Source: a virus
Lineage: Duplodnaviria; Caudoviricetes
IMG/VR virus record: IMGVR_UViG_3300048854_000081
Coordinates: 64,001 to 128,000 of that record
Length of the DNA: 64,000 bases
Strand: one strand, 5' to 3'
This document shows positions 1-45,500 of this stretch, piece by piece. The translations under genes were made by a program, and so were the position numbers. A model generated the notes under the pieces. The model ran no database searches, was not told where the DNA came from, and saw nothing but the letters and a program-made list of their open reading frames with translations. Within the stretch, counting starts at the first letter, position 1, and every line of letters starts with the position of its first letter.

Positions 1-264
1 CGAGCCACCCTGAAGTTCGATGTGGTCGAGGAAGCCGTCCAGCAGACCTCTGCAATGGTTCAGCAGCCAAAGCAGGCTCGTGGCCGCAATGCTGCCGCGA
101 ACGATGACCAGAAGCAGTCGGGTGGTATCGCTGGCATCACCAGCAAGAGCGACCTTGCGGAACTGATCGTATCGGCTGTCGCTGCCGTGATGGATCATCG
201 CGACAAGCAACAGAACGCAAATTCGGCAGATAATGCTGGTGCGTCTGCCTCTGCTCAGGCATAA
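1..264 (+). CDS. hypothetical protein, 5'-truncated by window edge
   Basis: Frame open from base 1 to TAA at 264; Ala/Gln-rich low-complexity C-terminus. Confidence 0.6.
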   Translation, partial: RATLKFDVVEEAVQQTSAMVQQPKQARGRNAAANDDQKQSGGIAGITSKSDLAELIVSAVAAVMDHRDKQQNANSADNAGASASAQA

Positions 265-432
265 TCGAGTCGCCTCTTCAGGCAAAACTCAATCGTGGCC
301 TCCCGAGTAGTTCAGCGTATCAAACCGTTGCTACTCGGTGCCATGGTTGTAATGTATTACAACATACATGAATCCCAATTGAATCGTTTCTAGCTTGGCA
401 GTTACGAGAGGGGTACAAACGGGAGTAGTTCC

Positions 433-654
433 ATGGGCAGCGTGAAACCTAGCAACGTGATTCCTTTCGATGCTTATGCCGAAGGTTCAAGAGCTTTCCA
501 TGATGGGAAGACGTGGCATGAAAATCCCTATGCTCACATGGCATGTTCCCCACACGCTTACATGTGGACATGTGGATGGGATGATGCCAGTCTAAACCCT
601 ACGGTAATCCCTCCTAAGGTGCAGCGTGTACAGCAGTCGCGAACGGTTGGATGA
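433..654 (+). CDS. Rmf/CrpP-fold (ribosome modulation factor-like) small protein
   Basis: AYAEGSRAF-x6-NPY-x8-W-x-CGWDDA matches the Rmf pattern (Y..G..A......PY.......W..GW); GGGAG RBS upstream. Confidence 0.6.
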   Translation: MGSVKPSNVIPFDAYAEGSRAFHDGKTWHENPYAHMACSPHAYMWTCGWDDASLNPTVIPPKVQRVQQSRTVG

Positions 655-769
655 ACTGGGGACGCTCTGGTATGACATCTTTGATCCCGAAGGGAACATG
701 GTCGCCAGCCTCAAAGACTTCTACGTCGTCGAAACCCTGCTATTTCAACTCAACAGGTCCACCCACTGA
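626..769 (+). CDS. 47-aa hypothetical early protein (not in ORF track)
   Basis: GTG start after TAAGGT; MYSSRERLDELGTLWYDIFDPEGNMVASLKDFYVVETLLFQLNRSTH. Confidence 0.5.
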   Translation: MYSSRERLDELGTLWYDIFDPEGNMVASLKDFYVVETLLFQLNRSTH

Positions 770-808
770 CTATCTAATCAGTGGGTAGTTGCAGCGGCCT
801 CCATCCTC
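758..808 (-). ncRNA. putative small RNA copy A (5' GAGGAUGGAG..., 3' hairpin)
   Basis: Starts 7 nt after minus-strand TAAAAT (815-820); 9-bp stem ACCCACTGA/TCAGTGGGT at 761-789. Confidence 0.5.
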
Positions 809-814
809 GTCTCT

Positions 815-848
815 ATTTTAATACATCTACCCTGAACCGTAGCTGAAT
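815..848 (-). promoter_or_regulatory. PhoP-box-like direct repeat + -10 (cassette A)
   Basis: Minus strand ATTCAG-ctacg-GTTCAG, 11 bp, TAAAAT. Confidence 0.7.
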
Positions 849-866
849 GAAGCTTTGCGGGCATTG

Positions 867-895
867 TTGCATCTGTCGTTAGGTTACGTTATGAT
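867..895 (+). promoter_or_regulatory. sigma70 early promoter
   Basis: TTGCAT-N17-TATGAT followed by AC-rich leader. Confidence 0.75.
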
Positions 896-924
896 ACCTC
901 CACACTAACCAAACGGACCTAGCG

Positions 925-1188
925 ATGAATCGTTACGTTGCCATTCCCTCGCGTCATCTGCGCAATACCAAGACGGGTGCCACGGCAAGCCTCTATGGTG
1001 CCCATCCGGCCAAGTCTCCGGGTGATTTTCAGAACTGGCTCGTAGTCACTAACGGTTGGACCATCCACGACCTCAAGGAAAACCGTATCGGTGGTTTCCA
1101 GTCGTGCCCTCCCGGTTCCTCACAGGAACATGCGGAGTCCGTCGCTGCCCACCTCAACGCTCTCACAGGGAATCGTACCCATGGTTAA
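925..1188 (+). CDS. hypothetical early protein
   Basis: Directly behind promoter, GGA RBS. Confidence 0.75.
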   Translation: MNRYVAIPSRHLRNTKTGATASLYGAHPAKSPGDFQNWLVVTNGWTIHDLKENRIGGFQSCPPGSSQEHAESVAAHLNALTGNRTHG

Positions 1189-1375
1189 TTTCAACTGGTG
1201 GCTCATTGCCAGCCTCATCGGCTTCTCGGTCAGCTTGTACTACTGGGTATTTCACTGGGTACGGGCGATTTCCATCATCGGTCTTCAGACGAAAAGCACC
1301 ATCGCGTTTCGTCCGTATGCAATCAGTGGTGTTGGTTTGTTCATCTTCGGGTGGCTGTTGTATCATTGCAACTAA
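1181..1375 (+). CDS. small two-TM membrane protein
   Basis: MVNFNWWLIASLIGF...; two hydrophobic segments; overlaps upstream stop. Confidence 0.6.
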   Translation: MVNFNWWLIASLIGFSVSLYYWVFHWVRAISIIGLQTKSTIAFRPYAISGVGLFIFGWLLYHCN

Positions 1376-1408
1376 TGCATTACAATAGTATCTCACAAAG
1401 GATATCTA

Positions 1409-1603
1409 ATGTATTGCATTCGTTATACGGTTGACAAAGAGACGGCCATATGGTGCGACCCCAACATCCGGGGTAACCGTGAACCAATGGAATATCACAT
1501 AAAGGCACATGCTGAACAGGAATGCGAGTTCCTGAATCGTCAGTATTGTGGTGAAGGGTTTCACTTCACTGTTGACATTCATCCTAACGTTACTGTAACC
1601 TAA
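1409..1603 (+). CDS. hypothetical early protein
   Basis: AAGGA RBS; co-oriented. Confidence 0.65.
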   Translation: MYCIRYTVDKETAIWCDPNIRGNREPMEYHIKAHAEQECEFLNRQYCGEGFHFTVDIHPNVTVT

Positions 1604-1625
1604 CCGTTCTCATTCGGAGACAACC

Positions 1626-1850
1626 ATGTCCACCAACACGATCCCGAACATCATCAAGTCTGTCGGTAATCTCAATCCCATCGCCCATGAGGTGTGGAAG
1701 GGTCGTGATGCCAAGGTGGAATACATCGTTCGTGGCATCACTGGCATTGACCCCAAGGTGGAGTTCATCGCTACCGATCACGTGGGCTGTCGCCAGTACT
1801 GTGATACCCTTACCGAAGCCCTTGCGTGGCTCGACCTCCCCAAGTACTAA
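1626..1850 (+). CDS. hypothetical early protein
   Basis: GGAG RBS. Confidence 0.75.
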   Translation: MSTNTIPNIIKSVGNLNPIAHEVWKGRDAKVEYIVRGITGIDPKVEFIATDHVGCRQYCDTLTEALAWLDLPKY

Positions 1851-1860
1851 GGGAACTACC

Positions 1861-2205
1861 ATGTTGAAGAAAGAACGTCAGCAATTGGCTAAGGATATTG
1901 TGGCCCTGTGTAACGAGCATGGTTACACGTTCACTATGGACCCTATCTATGTCCATGGCCGGGATGCTGGAATCACCCTGAACATCGATTGTGGCGCGGT
2001 TAAAGCCATGGTCAGGCTCAACCACAGGGAATTCTATAGCGTTAACTGGTACGATGCCAAACGTCAACTATCCTCATGGACCTTTGGTGATGTCAATGCC
2101 TTCCATGGCACCAAGGCTACGTCATTCTGCGCTGGTGGCGACCAACTGTTGACATTCTTCAAGACAACCTTTACCAAGATCAAGAATGGTAAAGCGTTCA
2201 CCTAA
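1861..2205 (+). CDS. hypothetical early protein
   Basis: AAGGGA RBS before ATG 1861 (MLKKERQQ...). Confidence 0.75.
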   Translation: MLKKERQQLAKDIVALCNEHGYTFTMDPIYVHGRDAGITLNIDCGAVKAMVRLNHREFYSVNWYDAKRQLSSWTFGDVNAFHGTKATSFCAGGDQLLTFFKTTFTKIKNGKAFT

Positions 2206-2210
2206 GGGTA

Positions 2211-2239
2211 TTGCGTTACCTAACCTATTCCATTAGAAT
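2211..2239 (+). promoter_or_regulatory. sigma70 early promoter
   Basis: TTGCGT-N17-TAGAAT. Confidence 0.65.
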
Positions 2240-2264
2240 GGCAACATCCTACAGGGGAACAGCC

Positions 2265-2441
2265 ATGACACACCGTGATCGCCACCCATTCCATCGGTCG
2301 CACACTCCTGATAAGAACTACCTGTATTGCACCATTGATGCCCGTAAGGCTCTGGCGCGTGCGGCAGAACTGAAGAAAGCCCGTCGTAAGCCTAAGGCTC
2401 GACTGCTGGCGCTTATCAATCGGATTCGTGGCATAATCTAA
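2265..2441 (+). CDS. small basic hypothetical protein
   Basis: AGGGGA RBS before ATG 2265; Arg/Lys-rich C-terminus. Confidence 0.65.
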   Translation: MTHRDRHPFHRSHTPDKNYLYCTIDARKALARAAELKKARRKPKARLLALINRIRGII

Positions 2442-2446
2442 GGGTG

Positions 2447-2475
2447 TTGCATTCCGTAATCCATTGCATTATACT
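2447..2475 (+). promoter_or_regulatory. sigma70 early promoter
   Basis: TTGCAT-N17-TATACT. Confidence 0.8.
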
Positions 2476-2499
2476 GTCGTCACTCCAAAGGGAACTGAC

Positions 2500-2889
2500 A
2501 TGACCGACCCGAATATTTTCTATGTTGTATCTGCCTCTAGCAAGCGTGGTCTTGAGTCGGATGGCTATATCGATTACGATTCCCATTCGGGCGGTTATCC
2601 ATACCTTGCAAAGACTCTCATGGGTGCATATCGCTATGATACTCAGCAGAAGGCTGTTGATGCCGCTGAAAGGCTGCTCAGGAGCTTTGATAAGGAATAC
2701 AAGAATGTCAACGTTCTGCAAGCCAGACTTGCCACGAGCGTTATGATTCATTTTCCGGACGTTGACACCGATTATGACAAGGGTCTTCGTGACGGCAAGT
2801 TCCGTAATTCGTCGAAGTATCCGAACAATGACGAATACATGAATGGTTATATCGAAGGTATCAAGTCCTCAAAGGGAAACCTGACATGA
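2500..2889 (+). CDS. hypothetical early protein with C-terminal Y..G...G motifs
   Basis: AAGGGA RBS before ATG 2500; YDKGLRDG...YMNGYIEG. Confidence 0.75.
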   Translation: MTDPNIFYVVSASSKRGLESDGYIDYDSHSGGYPYLAKTLMGAYRYDTQQKAVDAAERLLRSFDKEYKNVNVLQARLATSVMIHFPDVDTDYDKGLRDGKFRNSSKYPNNDEYMNGYIEGIKSSKGNLT

Positions 2890-3104
2890 ACGACCGTGAA
2901 ATAATTGACGCACAGGTTAAGTCCATCACCAACGCTCTGGAAGCGTTGGTGCGGGTGAAAGAGGCTTCCAAGCCCTTCGCTGCCCTGTTGCAGGATCACC
3001 ATGATGACAAGGCCGACGATGAACCGTTGTTCGGTGTCAATGGTAAGTATATCACCTATGGTGATCTGCGTGAACTCAAGCGTGCCCTGAAGAAGGTTTC
3101 GTAA
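2886..3104 (+). CDS. hypothetical early protein
   Basis: ATGA overlap with upstream gene. Confidence 0.75.
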   Translation: MNDREIIDAQVKSITNALEALVRVKEASKPFAALLQDHHDDKADDEPLFGVNGKYITYGDLRELKRALKKVS

Positions 3105-3107
3105 CAG

Positions 3108-3136
3108 TTGCATTAGCTATTCAATTGCATTATACT
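3108..3136 (+). promoter_or_regulatory. sigma70 early promoter
   Basis: TTGCAT-N17-TATACT. Confidence 0.8.
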
Positions 3137-3167
3137 TGCATCACACCAACCAAAGAGGATTACGGCA

Positions 3168-3347
3168 ATGTCCCGTTCGTTTCGTGAAGGTTTCCAGCCC
3201 ATCAAGTCGAAGGCAAACGATCCGCGTCGTGCTTACCAGCATGATGACATGTTCGCTACCAGTGGTAAGCGTGGTGGTGACAAGGATGCGAAGCGTGAGG
3301 CTCGCCGTCAGGAAAAGCGTAACCAAACGCATTTCTACAGCCTGTGA
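3168..3347 (+). CDS. 59-aa basic hypothetical protein (not in ORF track)
   Basis: GAGGA RBS; MSRSFREGFQPIKSKANDPRRAYQHDDMFATSGKRGGDKDAKREARRQEKRNQTHFYSL; C-ending codon bias like neighbours. Confidence 0.75.
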   Translation: MSRSFREGFQPIKSKANDPRRAYQHDDMFATSGKRGGDKDAKREARRQEKRNQTHFYSL

Positions 3348-3370
3348 AGGTGTTGACTCGGGTAGAAATC

Positions 3371-3454
3371 GTGACATGGGTATTCATCATCGTTCTAGCT
3401 GGCGCTATGTTGCTGGCTAGTTCGATATCACTGGGTATTGCATTCCTTACGTAA
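3371..3454 (+). CDS. possible 27-aa single-TM peptide
   Basis: GTG start; MTWVFIIVLAGAMLLASSISLGIAFLT; weak RBS. Confidence 0.35.
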   Translation: MTWVFIIVLAGAMLLASSISLGIAFLT

Positions 3455-3465
3455 AGGTGTATACT
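3438..3465 (+). promoter_or_regulatory. sigma70 early promoter with TTACGTAA in spacer
   Basis: TTGCAT-N16-TATACT. Confidence 0.8.
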
Positions 3466-3497
3466 AGCTACACACCAACCGAAACGAGGGATGACCA

Positions 3498-3716
3498 ATG
3501 TACACTCTCCGCGATGCACTCCGTGAACGTGCCTACCAGAACGCCAAGATGGAAGCGCGTTGGAAGCATGAGAATGCCAAACGTGAAGAAATCGAAACCA
3601 TTCTGAAAGCTAACCCACAGATTGGAATCCTGATGCGCAACGGCAAGAATGTGTACTACACCTATCCCGCTGGTGGCAAGTACAAAGAAGCCAAGCATCC
3701 CGGCAAGCTAATCTAA
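3498..3716 (+). CDS. hypothetical early protein
   Basis: GAGGGA RBS; followed by terminator. Confidence 0.75.
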   Translation: MYTLRDALRERAYQNAKMEARWKHENAKREEIETILKANPQIGILMRNGKNVYYTYPAGGKYKEAKHPGKLI

Positions 3717-3717
3717 C

Positions 3718-3774
3718 CATAAAGCCCCATTGCTGGGGCTTTTCTTTACGTTACGGTAGCTGTTCCCCATCCGC
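3718..3774 (-). ncRNA. putative small RNA copy B (5' GCGGAUGGGGAACAG...)
   Basis: Starts 7 nt after TAAAAT (3781-3786); ends in the 3721-3743 hairpin. Confidence 0.55.
3721..3747. terminator. intrinsic terminator, potentially bidirectional
   Basis: AAAGCCCCA-ttgc-TGGGGCTTTTCTTT. Confidence 0.8.
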
Positions 3775-3780
3775 CAATCT

Positions 3781-3814
3781 ATTTTAATATAACCTACCTG
3801 AACGTAACCTGAAT
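3781..3814 (-). promoter_or_regulatory. PhoP-box-like direct repeat + -10 (cassette B)
   Basis: Minus strand ATTCAG-gttac-GTTCAG, 11 bp, TAAAAT. Confidence 0.7.
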
Positions 3815-3831
3815 AACATTTCATAACCCTA

Positions 3832-3859
3832 TTGCATTCCTTTTGTAAGAGTGTATACT
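3832..3859 (+). promoter_or_regulatory. sigma70 early promoter
   Basis: TTGCAT-N16-TATACT. Confidence 0.8.
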
Positions 3860-3883
3860 AGCCTCATACCACAGAGAACGACC

Positions 3884-4084
3884 ATGACCGAAGCTGAGCA
3901 GATTGCATCCACCCTCGTCGAACCTTACAAGGCCGACCTTGCTCCCTATCGTGGTCTGACTCCTACGCTGGACGATGTGCGTAAGTTCGTGGTCCGTTAC
4001 TTCCGTCAGCCCGGTCGAGTCTATCCCGGTCACCTGATGGCAGGTGAGATTGCCAAGGCTCTGTACGCCCTGATCATCGCTTGA
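3884..4084 (+). CDS. hypothetical early protein
   Basis: ATG 3884 downstream of promoter. Confidence 0.7.
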   Translation: MTEAEQIASTLVEPYKADLAPYRGLTPTLDDVRKFVVRYFRQPGRVYPGHLMAGEIAKALYALIIA

Positions 4085-4108
4085 CATCCTCTGAGGTTTA
4101 GTTATAAT
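4081..4108 (+). promoter_or_regulatory. sigma70 promoter with consensus hexamers
   Basis: TTGACA-N16-TATAAT. Confidence 0.85.
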
Positions 4109-4137
4109 ACCTCCACACCACTCATAAGGGATTTGCC

Positions 4138-4539
4138 ATGAAGCTTGTCGCTACCGAAACCGAAATGCTGCAACTGGCCTATGACGTACTGACCACTGGC
4201 CTGCCGAACTTCGTAGGCTACGGTATCGAACTGGATTACAGCCAGCAGGAATATGACAAGGCCAAGCAATCGCTGATCACCAGTGGTTCGACCAAGCCGA
4301 ACGATATCTGCATCGAAGACGTGCAGCGTGAAATGCTCCGCATGGGCTATGGCCTGACGTTCACGGATACGGAACATGAAGATGATGAGCCGGTCACGCT
4401 GACGCTGGAACTGATCAAGAAGAATTGGGATAGCATCCCGTTCAGTCGTATCGAGGCAGTGCTCAAAGAAAATTACGATGCCGATGATGCGGACGTGATC
4501 GCCCAGTCCATGATCTACGGCGAAGTGGTCTACGGTTAA
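4138..4539 (+). CDS. acidic hypothetical early protein
   Basis: TAAGGGA RBS; C-terminal DADDADVIAQSMIYGEVVYG. Confidence 0.8.
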   Translation: MKLVATETEMLQLAYDVLTTGLPNFVGYGIELDYSQQEYDKAKQSLITSGSTKPNDICIEDVQREMLRMGYGLTFTDTEHEDDEPVTLTLELIKKNWDSIPFSRIEAVLKENYDADDADVIAQSMIYGEVVYG

Positions 4540-4542
4540 CAT

Positions 4543-4602
4543 ACAAAACCCTACCTGACAAGGGTGGGGTTTTCTTATGGACGTTACTGCTCTCCCATCC
4601 AC
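4543..4602 (-). ncRNA. putative small RNA copy C (5' GUGGAUGGGAGAGCAG...)
   Basis: Starts 7 nt after TAAAAT (4609-4614); ends in hairpin plus UUUUGU. Confidence 0.5.
4545..4576 (+). terminator. intrinsic terminator
   Basis: AAAACCCTACC-loop-GGTGGGGTTTTCTT. Confidence 0.7.
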
Positions 4603-4608
4603 AACCCT

Positions 4609-4643
4609 ATTTTAAAGGATACTAGCTGAATAGAACCTGAACG
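4609..4643 (-). promoter_or_regulatory. PhoP-box-like direct repeat + -10 (cassette C)
   Basis: Minus strand CGTTCAG-gttct-ATTCAG, 11 bp, TAAAAT. Confidence 0.7.
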
Positions 4644-4660
4644 GTTACAAATCTTAGGTA

Positions 4661-4688
4661 TTGCATTCCATTATGAAACTAGTATACT
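4661..4688 (+). promoter_or_regulatory. sigma70 early promoter
   Basis: TTGCAT-N16-TATACT. Confidence 0.8.
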
Positions 4689-4718
4689 AGCCACACACCA
4701 ACCAACAGAGACAATACC

Positions 4719-5087
4719 ATGTCCGTTTACAAAAGCGCCATGAAGTACGGTAATCTTGTCAGTGGTATGATGGCTAACAGCCTGCCGAAGCCAGATGCAA
4801 AAGTTGGCGACTGGGCTACCATCATGGGTGGACGTGATCGCCATCCTGCCAAGATCACCGAAATCGTCTATGCCAAGAATGGCAAGATCAAGGGTTACAT
4901 GCTACAGCGCATGTCGTGGAAGATGGACCAGAATAGCGAAGGCTACGGTGTCAAGGGCTGGGAAGACGACTCCAAGCCGCAGGGTGAACCCAGCTTCTAC
5001 GAGGTGATCGTGCGGGGCAAGATGAAGGGTGCAGTACGTGATGCCCTGATCGGCCATGCCAACCCGTTCTATGATCGAACCTTCTAA
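4719..5087 (+). CDS. hypothetical early protein (SH3/KOW-like start VGDWATI...DRHPAKI)
   Basis: Behind promoter; ends GHANPFYDRTF. Confidence 0.8.
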   Translation: MSVYKSAMKYGNLVSGMMANSLPKPDAKVGDWATIMGGRDRHPAKITEIVYAKNGKIKGYMLQRMSWKMDQNSEGYGVKGWEDDSKPQGEPSFYEVIVRGKMKGAVRDALIGHANPFYDRTF

Positions 5088-5091
5088 ACAC

Positions 5092-5151
5092 AAGGAACCC
5101 ATCCTGTCAAGGGGTGGGTTTCATTTTACATGAATGCTGTTACCCATCCGC
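5092..5151 (-). ncRNA. putative small RNA copy D (5' GCGGAUGGGUAACAG...)
   Basis: Starts 7 nt after TAAAAT (5158-5163); ends in hairpin. Confidence 0.5.
5095..5128 (+). terminator. intrinsic terminator
   Basis: GAACCCATCC-loop-GGGTGGGTTTCATTTT. Confidence 0.65.
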
Positions 5152-5157
5152 CAGTCT

Positions 5158-5191
5158 ATTTTAATATAACCAAGCTGAACACACGCTGAAT
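5158..5191 (-). promoter_or_regulatory. PhoP-box-like direct repeat + -10 (cassette D)
   Basis: Minus strand ATTCAG-cgtgt-GTTCAG, 11 bp, TAAAAT. Confidence 0.7.
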
Positions 5192-5209
5192 AGATTACCT
5201 AACAGAGTG

Positions 5210-5237
5210 TTGCATTCCTTACGTAACTAGGTATACT
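5210..5237 (+). promoter_or_regulatory. sigma70 early promoter with TTACGTAA
   Basis: TTGCAT-N16-TATACT. Confidence 0.8.
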
Positions 5238-5264
5238 AGCCACACACCAACCAAAGGATATGTC

Positions 5265-5687
5265 ATGAACGATCTGAATCACTCTGTCGAGCCGAAGAAC
5301 TTCCCCGCGTTCGTGGGCATGGTCCGCAAGTTGGGTGAAGATAAGGATGTCGCTACGGAACTGCTGTGGCACATCGTCAACGAGCGTCCTGAACTGGCTC
5401 TCGCCCTGTTCAACGATATGAATACCCCTGTTGTGGTCCATACTGTCCACGTTGGCTGTCCGCTGTCTCCGTCTGCCAAGGATAAGGATGAGGTTCGCCT
5501 TGCTCCCGGTGTGATTTGGGCTGGGGATAAGTCAACCATCAGCGTCTTCAATTATCGTGCCATCCGCGACATTCACACGGGTGGTGGTCAGAGCCCGCGC
5601 ATCGCTGCCATCAAGCGTTTGCGTGAGCTTACCAGCCTTGGACTCAAGGAAGCCAAGGATACGTGCGATCTGTGGTTCATGTGGTAA
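5265..5687 (+). CDS. protein with ribosomal bL12 C-terminal-domain-like motif
   Basis: RIAAIKRLRELTSLGLKEAKD matches L7/L12 KI.VIK.VR..TGLGLKEAKD. Confidence 0.75.
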   Translation: MNDLNHSVEPKNFPAFVGMVRKLGEDKDVATELLWHIVNERPELALALFNDMNTPVVVHTVHVGCPLSPSAKDKDEVRLAPGVIWAGDKSTISVFNYRAIRDIHTGGGQSPRIAAIKRLRELTSLGLKEAKDTCDLWFMW

Positions 5688-5691
5688 GGGG

Positions 5692-5719
5692 TTGCATTCC
5701 CTTACGTAATCTGTATACT
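5692..5719 (+). promoter_or_regulatory. sigma70 early promoter with TTACGTAA
   Basis: TTGCAT-N16-TATACT. Confidence 0.8.
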
Positions 5720-5750
5720 AACCCCACACTAACCCGCTAAGGATACTGTC

Positions 5751-6098
5751 GTGATTCCTCTGAACGCCAAGAACATCGCCGCTCTCAACTTCTGCGAGAA
5801 CCTTGCCAATGGTAACCGTGGAGTCAAGGCATTCCTTGTCGCTAACATGACGGGTTGCACGTGCTGTCGCGATGAGAACTTCTACAGTGGTCCGTATCGC
5901 ACCAAGGAAGAGGCGGAAGCCGTGATGGTAGACCACCGTAAGCGTTCCTTGCTGGCTTCCCAGTTCGCTCGCGAAGGCAGGTATCACATTACCGAATGCC
6001 ATGTGCTGGAATATGAGAACTTGCTTGTGATCGACGGCGAGACTGTCAACCGTGGCGGTTGGAATCAGCACAATCTCGATATCGGTTACACCCCCTAA
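5751..6098 (+). CDS. hypothetical early protein (GCTCC motif)
   Basis: TAAGGA RBS, GTG start. Confidence 0.75.
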   Translation: MIPLNAKNIAALNFCENLANGNRGVKAFLVANMTGCTCCRDENFYSGPYRTKEEAEAVMVDHRKRSLLASQFAREGRYHITECHVLEYENLLVIDGETVNRGGWNQHNLDIGYTP

Positions 6099-6107
6099 CC
6101 AAGGGTG

Positions 6108-6135
6108 TTGACAACCTCATAGGTTCCGTTATAAT
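6108..6135 (+). promoter_or_regulatory. sigma70 promoter with consensus hexamers
   Basis: TTGACA-N16-TATAAT. Confidence 0.85.
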
Positions 6136-6160
6136 ACCTCCACACCACACGGAAACGACC

Positions 6161-6595
6161 ATGAAAACTCTGACCGGCCAGATTGTTGACTTCGTTGCCA
6201 CCGCAAAGGCCAATGGTGCCTGCACTGTCTACGCCAAGCTGCCCCGCTATCATGGACTGGTCGCGAACAACAAGGTCGTTCAGATTCGTAACAAGCGTGC
6301 ATACGCTGAGTATGTGGACGAACTGGGTAACATCGTGGTCCTCTGCAATGACCTGATCGTTCGCCAGTTCACCCATGCGGAATACGATGATGTGATCCTC
6401 GGTAAGAATGATCGCTATCACGTCATCATGCGCTTTGACAAGAATCAGGGCGTGCGTGCTGGGACACATGCCTATCTGGATGTCAAGGGTCGGATGCAGT
6501 GGTCCAAGGCCACGGCTACCAAGCATCTGAACGATGTCAAGAACGACGTTGGCTACAACAGCCATTACGATCACTTCGCACTGGAACTGGCATGA
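6161..6595 (+). CDS. hypothetical early protein
   Basis: GGA RBS before ATG 6161. Confidence 0.75.
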   Translation: MKTLTGQIVDFVATAKANGACTVYAKLPRYHGLVANNKVVQIRNKRAYAEYVDELGNIVVLCNDLIVRQFTHAEYDDVILGKNDRYHVIMRFDKNQGVRAGTHAYLDVKGRMQWSKATATKHLNDVKNDVGYNSHYDHFALELA

Positions 6596-6735
6596 ACGAG
6601 CTTATCCGTGCCATGGAACAAATCGAACGCCTCTCACGGGAGGCTGATCCCAAGCTGGTCGATGTCCCTGCGATGTTGGGTGATATCGCACGCAAAGCAT
6701 TGGAAAATGTCAAGGGGTTGCATTCCGTTACGTAA
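6592..6735 (+). CDS. small helical hypothetical protein
   Basis: ATGA overlap; MNELIRAMEQI... Confidence 0.65.
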   Translation: MNELIRAMEQIERLSREADPKLVDVPAMLGDIARKALENVKGLHSVT

Positions 6736-6745
6736 CCTGTATACT
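6718..6745 (+). promoter_or_regulatory. sigma70 early promoter with TTACGTAA
   Basis: TTGCAT-N16-TATACT. Confidence 0.8.
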
Positions 6746-6774
6746 ACACCCATACTAACCAACGGCGAACTGCT

Positions 6775-7155
6775 ATGAACCTCGTGATCACTTCTCTCCG
6801 TCAGCGTGTTGAGTCCGAGTCCTACTCCCTGTTCTTCCCGTTGGTGGAACATCCGGGTGCAGGCTGGGCACCACCGTGTGACAAGGATGGGAATGTCCTC
6901 CCCGATGAGTTCGCATCGCTGGCGCAGCGTCAGGCCGAAGTGGCTAAGCATCTTGCCGATCCCATCTATGGCAAGCCCTACGTCCAGACCTTCTATAACA
7001 GCTACGTGGAAGCTGCTGTAGGCCGTTGTGAGTGCGGTGGCACAGTCCAGCTTGATGACGGACTGGAAAACTTCTGCGATGAGTGTGGTGCGTGCTACAA
7101 CATGGCTGGGCAGCGTGTCCATCCTGAACTGGCCGAAGGGAACGACCTCTACTAA
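6775..7155 (+). CDS. Zn-ribbon protein
   Basis: CECG...CDECG..YN..GQ. Confidence 0.75.
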   Translation: MNLVITSLRQRVESESYSLFFPLVEHPGAGWAPPCDKDGNVLPDEFASLAQRQAEVAKHLADPIYGKPYVQTFYNSYVEAAVGRCECGGTVQLDDGLENFCDECGACYNMAGQRVHPELAEGNDLY

Positions 7156-7159
7156 GGGG

Positions 7160-7187
7160 TTGCATTCCATTACAAAACCTGTATACT
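7160..7187 (+). promoter_or_regulatory. sigma70 early promoter
   Basis: TTGCAT-N16-TATACT. Confidence 0.8.
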
Positions 7188-7215
7188 AGCCACACACCAC
7201 AACGGAACTGATGCC

Positions 7216-7497
7216 ATGACCACTGTTACCGATTTCGAAACCCTCATTGGCTTGCGCGAGTATGCTGATGACCGTGCGGAATACTGGTCCATGGAACTGA
7301 ACAAGTTCCCTAAGGGTGAAATGGGTCTGACTCCCGATGCTGTCAAGGCATCCCCGGAGTTCAAGATGGCTAAGAGTAACTACGATGAGGCATTCTTTAG
7401 CCTCCGTCGTTACAATGCCCTGCTCCGCACCCACTACCCGAAACAGTTCGCCAAGCATACCAAAGCTGCCATTGCAGCACGGAGAGCCAAAGCATGA
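7216..7497 (+). CDS. hypothetical early protein
   Basis: Behind promoter; FPKGEMGLTPDAVK. Confidence 0.8.
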   Translation: MTTVTDFETLIGLREYADDRAEYWSMELNKFPKGEMGLTPDAVKASPEFKMAKSNYDEAFFSLRRYNALLRTHYPKQFAKHTKAAIAARRAKA

Positions 7498-7667
7498 ACG
7501 ATAACCTTCCCCTTGAAATCAAGTGGCGTGGTGCGACCTATGTGATGCTGTCCGTTCAAGACGGCTACGTTACGTGGCGTAATACCTTCTCCGGCTACAG
7601 TGAGTCATGCTCTGTCGAAAGCTGGAAAGAGGGTAAGCCGTACGAACGCCAGATGGGTGCTTACTAA
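7494..7667 (+). CDS. 57-aa hypothetical protein (not in ORF track)
   Basis: GGAG RBS, ATGA overlap; MNDNLPLEIKWRGATYVML... Confidence 0.7.
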   Translation: MNDNLPLEIKWRGATYVMLSVQDGYVTWRNTFSGYSESCSVESWKEGKPYERQMGAY

Positions 7668-7668
7668 C

Positions 7669-7872
7669 ATGGTAGAACCGCGCCAGTTCACTGTAGGAGC
7701 GCATTCCATACGTAACCCATGGGAACGTAGCCTCAATGACACCGCTGAGCGTGTAGAGGCTTATGGGGGCTTACACCCTGTGTTGTACGATACCCTGACA
7801 GGAACGTACTTCACCCGCATCGTGCACACGTTCAGTCAGCACGCAATCCTCTACCATCTGCACCTGAAGTAG
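7669..7872 (+). CDS. hypothetical early protein
   Basis: ATG immediately after upstream TAA. Confidence 0.55.
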   Translation: MVEPRQFTVGAHSIRNPWERSLNDTAERVEAYGGLHPVLYDTLTGTYFTRIVHTFSQHAILYHLHLK

Positions 7873-7879
7873 TCAAGGG

Positions 7880-7907
7880 TTGCATTTCCTTAGGAGATAG
7901 GTATACT
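7880..7907 (+). promoter_or_regulatory. sigma70 early promoter
   Basis: TTGCAT-N16-TATACT. Confidence 0.8.
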
Positions 7908-7931
7908 AACCTCACTCACCAAGGAACTGCC

Positions 7932-8156
7932 ATGAACGACATCAAAGAATTCGCAACCGTCGAAGATGCATTCGAATGGATGTATGAGGCTGTTGATGAT
8001 GGGTGTATCGATAACGAACGCTTTGCCTACTCCGATGATGAGGATGCGGTCAACCGTTTCATTGAGTTGACTGATCAAGGCTGCTGTGGTTGCTTCGATT
8101 CCCTCGTAACCATCCTCGGTCGTGAGGCACACATCGGTTGCAACTATGGACATTGA
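7932..8156 (+). CDS. acidic hypothetical early protein (GCCGC...GCNYGH)
   Basis: AAGGA RBS. Confidence 0.8.
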   Translation: MNDIKEFATVEDAFEWMYEAVDDGCIDNERFAYSDDEDAVNRFIELTDQGCCGCFDSLVTILGREAHIGCNYGH

Positions 8157-8388
8157 TCCCATGACTGGCAGGCAGCATGACTTCATTCTCATGCTGCTGA
8201 TCAAAGCCCTACTGTTATCTAACCCTACCGCCGTACATGAGCGTACAGGACCGTCGTGGGGTTACATCTTCGATAAGGTAGGCAACGGTAGACCCCATGG
8301 CTATCCCACCATTGAAGAGTGGATGAATAGCCTTGACAAGTGGGCAGCTAGCAGGGCTATCACTGTCCTCAAGAGTCTACAACACTAA
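8146..8388 (+). CDS. hypothetical early protein
   Basis: ATG 8146 overlapping upstream stop. Confidence 0.6.
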   Translation: MDIDPMTGRQHDFILMLLIKALLLSNPTAVHERTGPSWGYIFDKVGNGRPHGYPTIEEWMNSLDKWAASRAITVLKSLQH

Positions 8389-8393
8389 GGGGG

Positions 8394-8421
8394 TTGCATT
8401 CCCTTACGTAACCTGTATACT
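8394..8421 (+). promoter_or_regulatory. sigma70 early promoter with TTACGTAA
   Basis: TTGCAT-N16-TATACT. Confidence 0.8.
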
Positions 8422-8451
8422 AGACTCATCCTAACGAAACGGACAACGACC

Positions 8452-8640
8452 ATGACCTCTGCCAACTATGCCCATATCTCCCTCAACGACTGGAATGCTA
8501 TGTCGCCGGTCGAGAAGGCCAAGGCTAAGGAATACGTCAATGCACGCTGCGACCAGATGCAGACCCTTACCCGTGAGGCACGCATGGCTGAGCGCAAGGC
8601 TCACCGTATCGCTACCTACATCAATGAGGTTAACTACTAA
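8452..8640 (+). CDS. hypothetical early protein
   Basis: GGA RBS; behind promoter. Confidence 0.75.
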   Translation: MTSANYAHISLNDWNAMSPVEKAKAKEYVNARCDQMQTLTREARMAERKAHRIATYINEVNY

Positions 8641-8798
8641 TGAATGCCTGCCCTAACCTCATCCCTATCATGAGCCGTGACCTCACCTATGTAGCAGGCG
8701 AGCTATCATGTGGTGGTGTATACAATGGTATGGTCATGCGCTGCGCACAGTGCAGTGAGTATGCCTGCCTTGAGTATGATGTGGATAGTGATAGCTAA
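8640..8798 (+). CDS. 52-aa Cys-rich (possible Zn-binding) protein (not in ORF track)
   Basis: TAATG overlap; CPN...CGG...CAQC. Confidence 0.55.
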   Translation: MNACPNLIPIMSRDLTYVAGELSCGGVYNGMVMRCAQCSEYACLEYDVDSDS

Positions 8799-8814
8799 CA
8801 GTAGGTAACACAGT

Positions 8815-8869
8815 AAGCTAAGCATGTCAACACTATGCTTAGCGTGTACACGCACTGCTCCCCATCCTC
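8815..8869 (-). ncRNA. putative small RNA copy E (5' GAGGAUGGGGAGCAG...)
   Basis: Starts 7 nt after TAAGAT (8876-8881); 9-bp stem GCTAAGCAT/ATGCTTAGC. Confidence 0.5.
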
Positions 8870-8875
8870 GTCCCT

Positions 8876-8910
8876 ATCTTACCATAGGTTAGCTGTATGT
8901 AACCTGAACG
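8876..8910 (-). promoter_or_regulatory. PhoP-box-like direct repeat + -10 (cassette E)
   Basis: Minus strand CGTTCAG-gttac-ATACAG, 11 bp, TAAGAT. Confidence 0.65.
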
Positions 8911-8927
8911 CTATGGTATGTAACCTA

Positions 8928-8956
8928 TTGCAATGCATAGGCTATGGTGGTATAGT
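8928..8956 (+). promoter_or_regulatory. sigma70 promoter
   Basis: TTGCAA-N17-TATAGT with TG extension. Confidence 0.65.
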
Positions 8957-9070
8957 ATGTACATAGGTAGCCTACTGGTATACGTGGAACGCTAAAGCAA
9001 GTTTGGTTTTATTTTGAATTACTTTTATTTTCTTTTACACCGCAGGGGTATAGGGTAGGCTAAGCGAGAG

Positions 9071-9158
9071 TGTGTATCTACCCCTAAAATAAAATTTTTT
9101 CATGATTTTCTTTTCCGTCACGCGAAGACTGTGTATCTACCCCTAAAATAAAATTTTT
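9071..9158. repeat. 29-bp direct repeat x2 at composition boundary
   Basis: TGTGTATCTACCCCTAAAATAAAATTTTT at 9071-9099 and 9130-9158. Confidence 0.95.
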
Positions 9159-9176
9159 CTGGAAAATTTCTGCACC

Positions 9177-42571: not shown

Positions 42572-45500
42572 ATGAAGATTAATTTTAGACAAGGAATCAT
42601 TGGGTGTCAAAGACTCCCAAAATTCATCAAGGTAACTTCACCAACGACTGCATCTTTTGATGCTTCGGTATTACCTACTGTTCTAAATTTTGCTGATGGT
42701 GCATCCAATTACCTTTATTATCTAAAAACCTCGATTGAACCTGCATGGATTTTTCCTGCGGGAGTAGAGTGCTGGTTATATTGGGATATTAGTACCGAAG
42801 ATAGCTCGTTTTCTTTTGGATACACTCCATTCAATCCATTCGCGACGACCGCACCAACCAACCCCCAAATTAATCAGATGTACTTTGATCTTACCGATTT
42901 CAAGTACAAGGCTTGGACAGGTCAATATTGGAGAAACGTTATCCGTGTCATCGCGGGTTCTGTGGATGCACAAGGAAAGGCTGTTCTTCAATCCACCGGC
43001 AGTCAGATCAATTGGCAGATATCTTGTATTACAAATGAAATTGTACTGGATGAAACTGCACGTCCTATTAAGAAATACAATGATGCTGGCTTTGAATTTT
43101 ATAACAAAGATACCATCAAGACTTTCAAGAAAGAATCGAATGATACTTTTACTTATTCCCGTTTAGTAAATGCTCATGGTGAGGCTGAAACGCCTATTTT
43201 GAAGCACTATTGTGTTACTTGGAAGAATTTTAACACATTAGAACCTGCTGATCCACAAATGTTAACACAACCCGCTTTCGCTCTTGCTGAGCGTGAAGTT
43301 GGTACAGGTGAGCTTACAAGCTTGTATTTCGATGGTTTTGTCACCAATAGAACCGATTGGAATTGGACTTATACAGAACATACACCATTGTATGTTGGTA
43401 GTCATGGTCAACTAACAGTAGATTTTGATCCAGTTTTCTCTTTCCAAACAGTTGGTTACATTGTTTCACAGAACACCATTTATGTGAATTTTTCTGAACA
43501 ATATGTCAGTCAAAATCACCCAACACTAACACCATCACCAACCACGTCTCCTACACCAACTGTTACACCTTCAGTTACGGTTTCCATGAGTGTGTCTCCG
43601 GAAGCTACCGCAACCCCTACACCAACAGTTACATCCAGTGCTACACCAAGTGTAACGGTTACTCCAACATTAACGGCTACGCCTTCTCATACATTAACAC
43701 CATCGGTTACTGTAACGAGAAGTTTGACCTTAACTCCAACACCTACCAATACTCAGACTGGTTCACCGTTTGTTACACATACTGCGACGCCTTCTGTATC
43801 GCAAACTGCGTCTCTAACTTCGACACCTACACCAACCGTCTCTCAGACCGCCTCTCCGTCCATTACACACTCTCCGACGCCAACTGTGTCCGAGACTGCA
43901 TCTTTGACCATGACGCCTTCTGTGACGCCTACAAGAAGTCTTACAGTAACCCCAAGTCATACGATATCGCCAAGCGTTTCGTTTACTCATACAGCAACGG
44001 CTACCCCAGCGGCGACACATACGGTAACTCCAACAGTCACACCTACTGTGACTCGCTCCATTTCCATCACACCATCGGTAACTCCAACACATTCGTTGAC
44101 ACCATCGGTCACGGGTACTCCGGGTGCTACCTTGACTCCATCGGTTACTATTTCGATATCCGTGTCGCAAACGTTGTCACCAACAGTCACACCAACCTTG
44201 ACAGCTACCCCTTCGATAACAGCTTCACCATCGGAGACTCCACAAGCTACCTTAACAAATACACCGACTGCAACTGTCACTCAGACAGTTACACCAACCT
44301 TGACACCTACCGTAACTCCAACCATTTCCATTACACCATCAGTAACAGCTAGCCAAAGCGTAAGTTTAACAGCTTCGTTGACTCCTACGGTAACATCTTC
44401 AGTTACACCAACGGTGACACCAACTATTTCACTAACAGGTGAAGTTACACCTACGCCTACGAGTTCAATCAGCCCAAGTCCAACCTTAACTCCAACAAAT
44501 ACCGCAACGGTCAGCGTTTCGTCGTCGCTAACTCCTACACCAACAGTAACGGCTTCACAAACCATTACAGTATCTACAAGTGCCACACCGGGTGCTACTG
44601 CTACGCCAACAGCTACGGTTACACCAACGATTTCTGTAACACCATCTGTTACGGGAAGTTTGACCTTGACCCCAACATCGACTGTTACGCCTTCAGTAAC
44701 CCAGTCAATATCTGTATCTCTAACACCATCCCCAACCGGAACTCCGGCTGTAACGGTATCTGTATCAGGAACACCGCCTGTTACACCAACCGCTACGGCT
44801 ACCATAACTCCAACGAATACAGTTACCCCTTCGGTGACAGGTTCGCTTACATTTACTCCAACTGCGACTGCATTACCAACAGTCACACCAACAATTTCTA
44901 CAACTCCATCCGTGACAGCGACCCCACCTGTAACTCAGTCGCTATCCGTGACACCAAATCCTACTGGAACTCCACCAGTAACTCCAACAAGCACACTTAC
45001 ATTAACTCCGACTCAGACTGCCTCGGTGACGTTAACGGCACAACCTACGGTCACACCTACACTTTCACTAACACCATCCCCATCGTTGACGGCATCGTTG
45101 ACCTTAACTCCTACACCAACATCGGAAGTAACTGTAACTCCAACTCTGACCGTAACTCCTTCCGTAACACAGTCAATTTCTGTGAGCTTGACTGCGACAA
45201 TTACTCCAACGATTTCTTCGACACCTCCGGTAACGCAGACAATTTCGACTACCCCATCACCTACCCCAACGATAACTGGTTCGATTACTCCATCGGTAAG
45301 CATTTCGCCATCTGGAACAATTACACCTACCCCAACACCATCGCAAACTCCAACAAACCAAGATTTGTTAGTAATGGCACATAACAATACTCCACGCGTT
45401 GCGGTGTATGGTCAAAATGGTTCCACATTCACCCCAATTACTCAAAGCTTAGGTATTACGACGGGTGATGGTCGTGCAATTGCAATGAGTCCTGATTCTG

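What the first reader, a model, noticed from the sequence alone, without database searches (positions are those of the whole stretch)
758..8910. Five-copy family of putative phage small RNAs behind PhoP-box-like promoters, hidden antisense in the early region
Seen: five minus-strand units (808, 3774, 4602, 5151, 8869 = predicted +1) share identical geometry: RTTCAG-N5-RTTCAG, exactly 11 bp, TAAAAT (TAAGAT in E), exactly 6 bp, then G-N-GGAUGG(G/A). The 5' ends are GAGGAUGGAG, GCGGAUGGGG, GUGGAUGGGA, GCGGAUGGGU and GAGGAUGGGG; four of five have CAG at about +13 to +16. Each ends 20-30 nt later in a hairpin of largely different sequence. The spacers have diverged while the boxes, distances and 5' seed have not, which argues for selection. 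Established: CGTTCAG-N5-RTTCAG is the Pseudomonas aeruginosa PhoP consensus (oprH-type), and a PhoP box 11-12 bp upstream of -10 replacing the -35 is the classic PhoP-activated promoter layout. Inference: a large phage makes redundant 50-60 nt seed-type sRNAs in response to a host two-component system (low Mg2+/antimicrobial peptide), acting by pairing to CCCAUCC, by sponging a host sRNA, or by binding RsmA/CsrA through GGA. Caveats: hairpins C and D pair better on the plus strand (G-U), and A has no U-tail.
Basis: partly seen in the sequence, partly recalled or inferred. Interest (0 to 1): 0.92.

Follow-up and report, generated by a model that had tools for sequence, protein, structure and literature searches.

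The report
PhoP-box, G-rich-start phage promoters
The end repeat of this jumbo phage carries 11 promoters with an undescribed G-rich start, 9 of them behind a box of the kind read by the bacterial stress regulator PhoP; relatives keep the G-rich start but change the supposed RNA seed, so it probably acts on the DNA where it sits, not as a family of small RNAs.

Summary
The five units are real; copy E has an imperfect second half-box. The genome is an XacN1-like jumbo phage and the stretch lies in its ~31-kb terminal repeat, which holds 11 units. Two separable layers emerge. (1) A PhoP-type box 11 nt before the -10. The same layout precedes phoPQ-like operons in many Gammaproteobacteria (101/301 genomes carry it, reversed control 0), and a one-mismatch version precedes Xanthomonadaceae-type phoP. 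The phage also uses it at mRNA promoters. (2) A G-rich module after the -10 (consensus RG-N6-GG-H-Y-GG): 78 copies in 8 related phages, many behind a plain -35. The GGATGG seed varies between phages, more than half the copies lack a terminator, there is no shared RNA fold, and the hairpins mostly belong to converging genes. The module recurs at Ltr-type late promoters of Gram-positive prophages (34/70 versus 6/2136 controls). Best reading, untested: a cis-acting promoter start that holds RNA polymerase or a stable RNA:DNA hybrid and tunes neighbouring early promoters. Main rival: replication priming near the genome ends. The scan had noted these 11 copies in an overlapping window only.

The parts
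832..848 (-). Copy A, PhoP-type direct repeat
   Evidence: sequence
800..820 (-). Copy A, -10 (815-820) and G-rich module (800-814)
759..788 (.). Hairpin facing copy A, no T-tail on either strand
867..895 (+). Divergent sigma70-type early promoter, -35 starts 18 nt from box A
   Evidence: consensus match only
3798..3814 (-). Copy B, PhoP-type direct repeat (near-identical unit at genome 59,350)
3766..3786 (-). Copy B, -10 (3781-3786) and G-rich module
3721..3742 (+). Terminator of the converging plus-strand gene 3498-3716, possibly bidirectional
3832..3859 (+). Divergent early promoter, 17 nt from box B
4626..4642 (-). Copy C, PhoP-type direct repeat
4594..4614 (-). Copy C, -10 (4609-4614) and G-rich module
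4545..4573 (+). Terminator of gene 4138-4539; folds better on plus strand, T-tails on both
4661..4688 (+). Divergent early promoter, 18 nt from box C
5175..5191 (-). Copy D, PhoP-type direct repeat
5143..5163 (-). Copy D, -10 (5158-5163) and G-rich module
5094..5122 (+). Terminator of gene 4719-5087 (plus-strand fold z -3.2; minus-strand RNA z 0.08)
5210..5237 (+). Divergent early promoter, 18 nt from box D
8893..8909 (-). Copy E, direct repeat with one imperfect half (ATACAG)
8861..8881 (-). Copy E, -10 TAAGAT (8876-8881) and module; outermost copy, 180 bp inside the inferred genome end, pointing inward
8817..8843 (.). Hairpin facing copy E
8928..8956 (+). Divergent promoter, 18 nt from box E
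8990..9061 (-). Inferred genome terminus (AGCC at 9061), similar to the deposited left ends of XacN1 and Xoo-sp13
   Evidence: contig depth about doubled over 1-5245

Best explanation
Each unit is a host-RNA-polymerase promoter built from two independent parts. Upstream, in this clade, a PhoP-type box replaces the -35, so host PhoP~P (or a close OmpR-family regulator) most likely switches it on. The phage also uses this box for ordinary early mRNA promoters. Downstream of the -10, a G-rich module acts in cis. G at discriminator positions 1-2, GG at positions 9-10 and a near-invariant pyrimidine-G step at 12-13 would hold polymerase, or its first 9-12 nt of RNA as an unusually stable hybrid, at the start site. 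In the terminal repeat these held or short-run complexes sit back-to-back with, or just upstream of, early promoters and head-on to the terminators of upstream genes. They would thereby insulate and tune neighbouring early transcription units, in a PhoP-dependent way in this clade. Shown: sequence, copy number, location, interchangeable upstream parts, variable seed, recurrence at Ltr late promoters, calculated hybrid energies. Inferred: transcription itself, PhoP binding, polymerase holding, and any effect on neighbouring promoters.
For: The same module follows a PhoP box, a consensus -35 (XacN1, Xoo-sp13) or Ltr repeats. It occurs in 34/70 distinct Ltr-gene 3' regions chosen by protein homology alone, against 6/2136 control windows. 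There the -35 position, not part of the pattern, has T in 34/34 and G in 31/34. No Ltr homologue was found in the jumbo phages, so a shared reader would be a host factor conserved across two phyla, most simply RNA polymerase (inference). Positions not forced by the search pattern are still constrained: position 11 never G, position 12 pyrimidine in 68/71. The calculated hybrid-minus-duplex energy for +1..+12 is -3.9 versus -0.9 kcal/mol at ordinary promoters of the same repeats, with no difference further downstream; this follows from the G content and is not independent evidence. 37 copies have a divergent promoter at 32/42/52/73/82 nt, and 25 of 35 back-to-back early promoters have a module as partner. 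Facing hairpins cluster 38-49 nt from the -10. Host box; no OmpR-type DNA-binding domain found in five of the phages.
Against: Nothing here measures transcription. The consensus for scrunched initial pausing is T-N-Y-G (PMC9191641), and the module has G where T is expected. Purine-rich initial sequences usually speed escape (own knowledge). The helical phasing is also seen in the 10 back-to-back pairs without a module, so it shows only that these behave like promoters. The module is absent from S. aureus phi13 P23 and from about half of the Ltr loci, so Ltr control does not need it. The jumbo/Ltr likeness could be convergence on G-richness with different uses. The host of this phage is inferred from relatives at about 45-48% core protein identity.
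Confidence: 0.4

Rival explanations
1. The units are redundant RNA-primed origins or recombination triggers. The G-rich 5' RNA stays hybridised as an R-loop and primes DNA synthesis, or terminal-repeat duplication, inward from the genome ends, like T4 oriF or the Neisseria gar/G4 element.
For: All copies lie in the terminal repeat in the six genomes where it could be delimited. 56 of 71 point inward from the nearer repeat end, against 106 of 273 ordinary promoters; 11 of 11 in this genome, whatever the gene direction. The outermost copies bracket the repeat, 152-227 bp from the terminus in four genomes. The G-rich strand is the non-template strand and favours the hybrid. gar is a cis-acting sRNA whose promoter is adjacent to a G-rich tract and forms an R-loop (PMC13463697).
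Against: Ltr late promoters are not known origins. G004 and XacN1 have mixed orientations (11/16, 8/12), and the genomes are related, so the counts are not independent. No GC-skew switch at the convergence point. 10 of 11 copies in this phage have only three GG tracts, too few for an intramolecular G4.
Confidence: 0.2
2. One reading: the antisense copies make 55-65 nt RNAs whose G-rich 5' end acts in trans, by pairing with host C-rich targets or by binding CsrA/RsmA through GGA, induced by PhoP.
For: About 13-15 of 78 copies face a hairpin with a T-tail on their own strand, at a fairly constant distance. Nearly all copies have a GGA within the first 12 nt. The seed is uniform within each phage and could track host-specific targets. 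The PhoP-type box is real.
Against: The seed differs among phages, including XacN1 (mostly GGCCGG) and Xoo-sp13 (mostly GGACGG), which both infect Xanthomonas. The untranscribed discriminator and the -10 variant are as conserved as the seed. More than half the copies have no terminator. No shared fold: pairing of the 5' end is no greater than with shuffled tails (p 0.21), and own versus foreign 5' end p 0.42. Only an unrelated miRNA-family chance hit in Rfam. The same module starts late transcripts of unrelated prophages.
Confidence: 0.17
3. The module (and perhaps the box) is the site of a phage-encoded protein: an operator overlapping -10 to +9, or a MotA-like activator, co-evolving with its site in each phage.
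For: The variants are phage-specific and homogenised within each genome. The T4 MotA box has a similar distance to the -10 (own knowledge). Many small conserved proteins are unassigned.
Against: The box matches host phoP promoters in sequence and spacing. No PF00486 match, with a working control. The best candidate gene beside the cassette is a SprT-like protein. No shared protein found between jumbo phages and Ltr prophages. MotA and AsiA searches were blank but had no positive control.
Confidence: 0.1
4. The module is the antisense of a tRNA 3' end (TGG-N-acceptor complement, as in retroelement primer-binding sites) and either derives from tRNA genes or pairs with tRNA ends.
For: Seven XacN1 copies match the antisense of XacN1's own tRNA-Trp 3' end over 12-14 nt. 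Most G004 copies match tRNA-Pro/Ser ends over 7-10 nt, and one still adjoins a T-arm.
Against: In this phage the best own-tRNA match is only 4-7 nt. The TGG falls at positions 4, 5, 7-8 or 12 in different copies, untranscribed in XacN1. Most Ltr modules lack it. The column-shuffle null used is too lenient because copies within a phage are homogenised.
Confidence: 0.05

Closest known systems
PhoP-activated promoters of P. aeruginosa (oprH-phoP-phoQ type; PMC7916210)
   Same: Same direct repeat. The 11-nt distance to the -10 is identical to that before phoPQ-like operons of other Gammaproteobacteria.
   Different: Here it lies in a lytic jumbo phage's terminal repeat, 11-40 exact boxes in the richest genomes, partly in front of no gene. 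I found no paper on a lytic phage using PhoP boxes (one search).
Ltr superfamily late promoters (RinA/ArpU/LtrC; PMC3753634; phi13 Ltr and P23, bioRxiv 10.1101/2025.11.28.691083)
   Same: About half of the Ltr-type loci retrieved carry the same -10 plus G-rich module, downstream of 9-bp repeats, 16 of 34 with a terminator within 130 nt.
   Different: The jumbo phage has no detectable Ltr and no 9-bp repeats. The passages read in these papers describe repeats and activation, not a module after the -10; phi13 P23 itself lacks it.
Neisseria gonorrhoeae garP / pilE G4 element (PMC13463697)
   Same: Promoter directly adjacent to a G-rich non-template tract; short RNA acting in cis.
   Different: gar needs a four-tract G4 and is single-copy. 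Here most copies have three GG tracts and no R-loop is shown.
T4 oriF/oriG R-loop origins, and PeSL promoter-terminator cassettes of T4-type phages (own knowledge, not checked in a paper here)
   Same: Activator-box promoter without a -35; repeated promoter/terminator cassettes between small early genes.
   Different: Host-type regulator box instead of MotA; an extra antisense or tandem promoter with a G-rich start; no unwinding element tested.
Lambda PR' sigma-dependent pause and initial-transcription pause (PMC9191641)
   Same: Promoter-proximal conserved sequence, with a terminator shortly downstream in some copies; Y-G step.
   Different: No second -10-like pause element, and the T of the T-N-Y-G consensus is missing.

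Membership tests
PhoP-activated promoter (Pseudomonas/Xanthomonadaceae type) | RTTCAG-N5-RTTCAG direct repeat | tested here: met
   A-D exact, E one mismatch; consensus from PMC7916210
PhoP-activated promoter (Pseudomonas/Xanthomonadaceae type) | Box 11 nt upstream of a -10, as at host phoPQ-like operons | tested here: met
PhoP-activated promoter (Pseudomonas/Xanthomonadaceae type) | Bound and activated by host PhoP~P | not testable with these tools
   needs EMSA and a phoP mutant; host not identified
Trans-acting seed-pairing sRNA family | Seed conserved across homologues | tested here: not met
   five different seeds among 8 phages
Trans-acting seed-pairing sRNA family | Own intrinsic terminator giving a discrete RNA | tested here: inconclusive
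   15 of 78 copies have a hairpin with 5 or more T on the module strand; most hairpins favour the converging gene
Trans-acting seed-pairing sRNA family | Stable transcript detected | not testable with these tools
   needs stranded RNA data from an infection
CsrB/RsmZ-type sponge RNA | Several GGA motifs in hairpin loops | tested here: not met
   one or two GGA per unit; a GGA-loop hairpin in only a few copies; no shared fold; no Rfam match
gar/pilE G4 element | Four G-tracts able to fold an intramolecular G4 | tested here: not met
   10 of 11 copies in this genome have three GG tracts; XacN1 and Xoo-sp13 have four or more, two-tier only
gar/pilE G4 element | R-loop formed in cis | not testable with these tools
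   only the hybrid energy was calculated
T4 middle promoter / R-loop origin | Phage-encoded MotA and AsiA | tested here: inconclusive
   no match in six genomes, but no positive control rang
Ltr late promoter | Adjacent ltr gene and 9-bp repeats | tested here: not met
   no convincing Ltr homologue in the jumbo genomes
Initial-transcription / sigma-dependent pause | T-N-Y-G consensus at the pause | tested here: not met
   Y-G present in 68/71, but the T position is always G (PMC9191641)

The most novel reading that the evidence does not exclude
An undescribed promoter-start element read by bacterial RNA polymerase itself, used by two unrelated phage groups in different host phyla. In XacN1-like jumbo phages it forms an array of inward-facing R-loop or polymerase-holding sites that start replication or terminal-repeat duplication, and one clade has put this array and many early genes under host PhoP, tying the start of lytic growth to envelope stress and Mg2+.
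Probability: 0.2. Interest if true: 0.9.

Novelty: new variant of a known kind. Interest (0 to 1): 0.7.

Why it matters
If PhoP drives these promoters, a strictly lytic jumbo phage has built its early programme on a host two-component regulator: 11 exact boxes here, and 40, 26 and 13 in three relatives. Infection would then depend on Mg2+ and antimicrobial peptides, which matters for phages used against Xanthomonas and Stenotrophomonas. The G-rich module is a compact, testable element; XacN1 and Xoo-sp13 are cultured and carry 10-12 copies per repeat. How phages with very long terminal repeats start replication and duplicate the repeat is not settled (own knowledge), and the module's placement gives concrete sites to test. 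Its presence at about half of the Ltr late promoters examined also raises the question whether Ltr acts partly after polymerase binding.

Tried and rejected
No RNA holder listed among sequencing runs; this says nothing about expression. Rfam: only a chance miRNA-family hit. blastn against phage records found 56 bp only. The topoisomerase query found no loci in IMG/VR. Convergence on one centre: true here (11/11) but mixed in G004 and XacN1, so kept only as an inward bias; no skew switch. Chi-like protection: orientation is opposite to that expected and the fixed tie to a -10 does not fit (own knowledge). Universal G4: rejected for this phage. Phasing as a module-specific signal: rejected by the control. 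Shared RNA structure: rejected. Phage activator candidates: the gene beside the first cassette is SprT-like; an 88-aa protein shared by the box-bearing phages gave no Pfam match and only unnamed Atlas clusters plus one weak regulator hit. The module behind a consensus -35 was not found in the 301 bacterial genomes searched. It was not found in PA5oct, CBB, XbC2, RsoM2USA or Atu_ph07. The Xanthomonas PhoP ChIP paper was not held. The first Ltr hits were found with a module-shaped pattern and so were biased; they were replaced by the protein-first set.

Full report
Observation. The five minus-strand units exist as described, except that copy E has ATACAG as its second half-box. The whole 350-kb genome holds 11 units, all between 42.5 and 72.9 kb; three Markov-model genomes give none. 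Four are on the plus strand and have no terminator. Two of these have a sigma70-type -35 instead of the box. Three further boxes precede ordinary mRNA promoters, there with a 10-nt gap to TATAAT. In all five window copies the box also lies 17-18 nt from the -35 of a divergent early promoter. The hairpins of B, C and D follow the stop codon of the converging gene and have the longer T-tail on that strand.

Context. NrdA is 68-70% identical to that of XacN1, CM1, RAS14 and Xoo-sp13, and a tail-region protein finds the same four. Core proteins average 45-48% identity to the three compared. So this is an XacN1-like jumbo phage, probably of a xanthomonad; the host is inferred, not shown. Contig depth is about double over window 1-5245 (36 versus 18; 57 versus 31). 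These runs may be the source sample, and depth is a per-contig mean. The sequence ending at window 9061 resembles the deposited left ends of XacN1 and Xoo-sp13. XacN1 has 66-kb direct terminal repeats (PMC5852040). I infer a terminal repeat of about 31 kb, with the finding in its outer 8 kb.

Layer 1, the box. The layout box-11 nt-TANNNT occurs in 101 of 301 Gammaproteobacteria genomes and never in the reversed control. In most of the 20 loci examined it precedes a secreted-protein gene and a regulator/kinase pair. Their best or second-best NCBIfam models are PhoP and PhoQ, below the enterobacterial cut-offs. Three genomes with Xanthomonadaceae-type PhoP, recognised by a motif recalled from memory and then inspected, carry GTTCAG-N5-ATTCAC 11 nt before a weak -10 upstream of the phoP operon. 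Exact boxes are concentrated in the terminal repeats of the box-bearing clade: 11, 40, 7 and 3 inside against 3, 0, 0 and 0 outside, and 26 and 13 in two more genomes. XacN1 and Xoo-sp13 have none in their repeats. No OmpR-type domain was found in five of the phages. A host PhoP-like regulator is the likely reader (my estimate about 0.75); binding is untested.

Layer 2, the module. After the -10 comes RG-N6-GG-H-Y-GG. There are 78 copies in 8 genomes against 0-2 expected per genome, and 14 and 15 in two more. In the six genomes where the repeat could be delimited, all copies lie in it. The GG pairs were part of my pattern, but unforced positions are constrained too. The six-base seed differs between phages. 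Thirty copies face a terminator-like hairpin, 28 with the tail on the opposite strand and 15 on their own. The rest sit upstream of another promoter or gene. There is a slight folding excess (mean z -0.46) but no consistent pairing of the 5' end.

Unexpected recurrence. A search with the XacN1 variant hit Gram-positive prophages, directly after a 150-aa helix-turn-helix gene and upstream of the terminase genes. That protein is a homologue of phi13 Ltr / PVL orf61. Because those hits were pattern-biased, I collected 80 loci by protein homology alone. Of 70 distinct 3' regions, 34 carry the loosely defined module against 6 of 2136 control windows; strictly defined, 17 against 4. An unforced TG appears at the -35 position, and 16 of the 34 have a terminator within 130 nt. 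phi13 P23 lacks the module. The jumbo phages have no convincing Ltr homologue. The simplest common reader is host RNA polymerase (inference); independent convergence on G-richness is not excluded.

Mechanism. From established knowledge, G just after the -10 contacts sigma region 1.2 and lengthens open-complex life, G at +2 binds the core-recognition pocket, and Y-G steps favour pausing. The module has all three if the start is at position 8 or 9. It lacks the T of the scrunched-pause consensus, and purine-rich starts usually escape well, so holding is a hypothesis. The first 12 nt favour the RNA:DNA hybrid by a calculated 3 kcal/mol more than at ordinary promoters. Modules are the usual back-to-back partner of early promoters and face upstream terminators at 38-49 nt. 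I therefore favour local control of neighbouring early units by a long-lived polymerase or hybrid complex (0.4). The inward bias (56/71 versus 106/273) and the copies 152-227 bp from the terminus in four genomes keep R-loop priming of replication or recombination as the main rival (0.2), by analogy with gar. The two share the same physical state and are not exclusive. A trans-acting sRNA remains possible for the minority of copies with bidirectional terminators (0.17).

Comparison and verdict. The unit works like a PhoP-activated promoter and meets both sequence criteria. It fails the tested criteria for a seed sRNA family, a CsrB-type sponge, a gar-type G4 and an Ltr promoter. I found no description of the module or of PhoP-box use by a lytic phage in the searches made. 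The library lacks most subscription journals, so this is limited evidence of novelty. Earlier scan notes contained the same 11 copies from an overlapping window and ordinary Ltr promoters; no look-alike of the module on other DNA was returned. Verdict: a real and conserved regulatory feature, a new variant of known promoter kinds, with an unresolved function. Interest 0.7.

Noticed in passing
window 8990-9061 (minus strand); G001 93,776; G005 192,843; RAS14 24,192: A conserved genome-end signature (AGCC, a G-rich stretch, an A-rich stretch, then AAACTT) predicts the physical terminus of uncultured XacN1-like phages.
   Followed up: partly
XacN1 65,680-65,750; Xoo-sp13 71,300-71,355; G004 65,469-65,491: An array of TTAAC/TTAAG repeats with 11-bp period lies at the other boundary of the terminal repeat. 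It could be a site for a PmrA/QseB-type regulator or a packaging signal.
   Followed up: partly
G004 65-128 kb (L048-L051): 40 exact PhoP-type boxes in the terminal repeat and none in the other 250 kb. Many drive mRNAs; so many sites might also titrate the host regulator.
   Followed up: partly
XacN1 42,668-42,744 (L098) and seven module copies: The XacN1 module matches the antisense of the phage's own tRNA-Trp 3' end over 12-14 nt; a G004 copy at 116,966 adjoins a tRNA T-arm.
   Followed up: partly
L296-L375 (Gram-positive prophages): About half of the Ltr-type late promoters carry the G-rich module and 16 of 34 a nearby terminator, a lambda PR'-like layout; Ltr may act partly after polymerase binding.
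   Followed up: partly
L377-L396 (Gammaproteobacteria): A widespread PhoPQ-like regulon: the box precedes a secreted or glycine-zipper protein, a small secreted protein, the regulator and the kinase; elsewhere cytochrome c-like and DsbA-like genes.
   Followed up: partly
L091:12970-13020 (genome 52,970-53,020): A box-driven promoter with ATG 7 nt after the -10, apparently a leaderless mRNA; the mRNA boxes of this phage use a 10-nt gap, the module boxes 11 nt.
   Followed up: no
window 5265-5687 (+): Early protein of 140 aa with a ribosomal L7/L12 C-terminal-like domain (Pfam PF00542, E 7.7e-6).
   Followed up: no
window 9075-9165: Two copies of a ~30-bp unit with a C run, an A run and a T run just outside the inferred terminus; similar pairs flank the G001 terminus.
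   Followed up: no
genome 26,819-26,975 (outside the window): Two tRNAs with a CUA anticodon (amber suppressor-like) among 41 tRNA genes.
   Followed up: no
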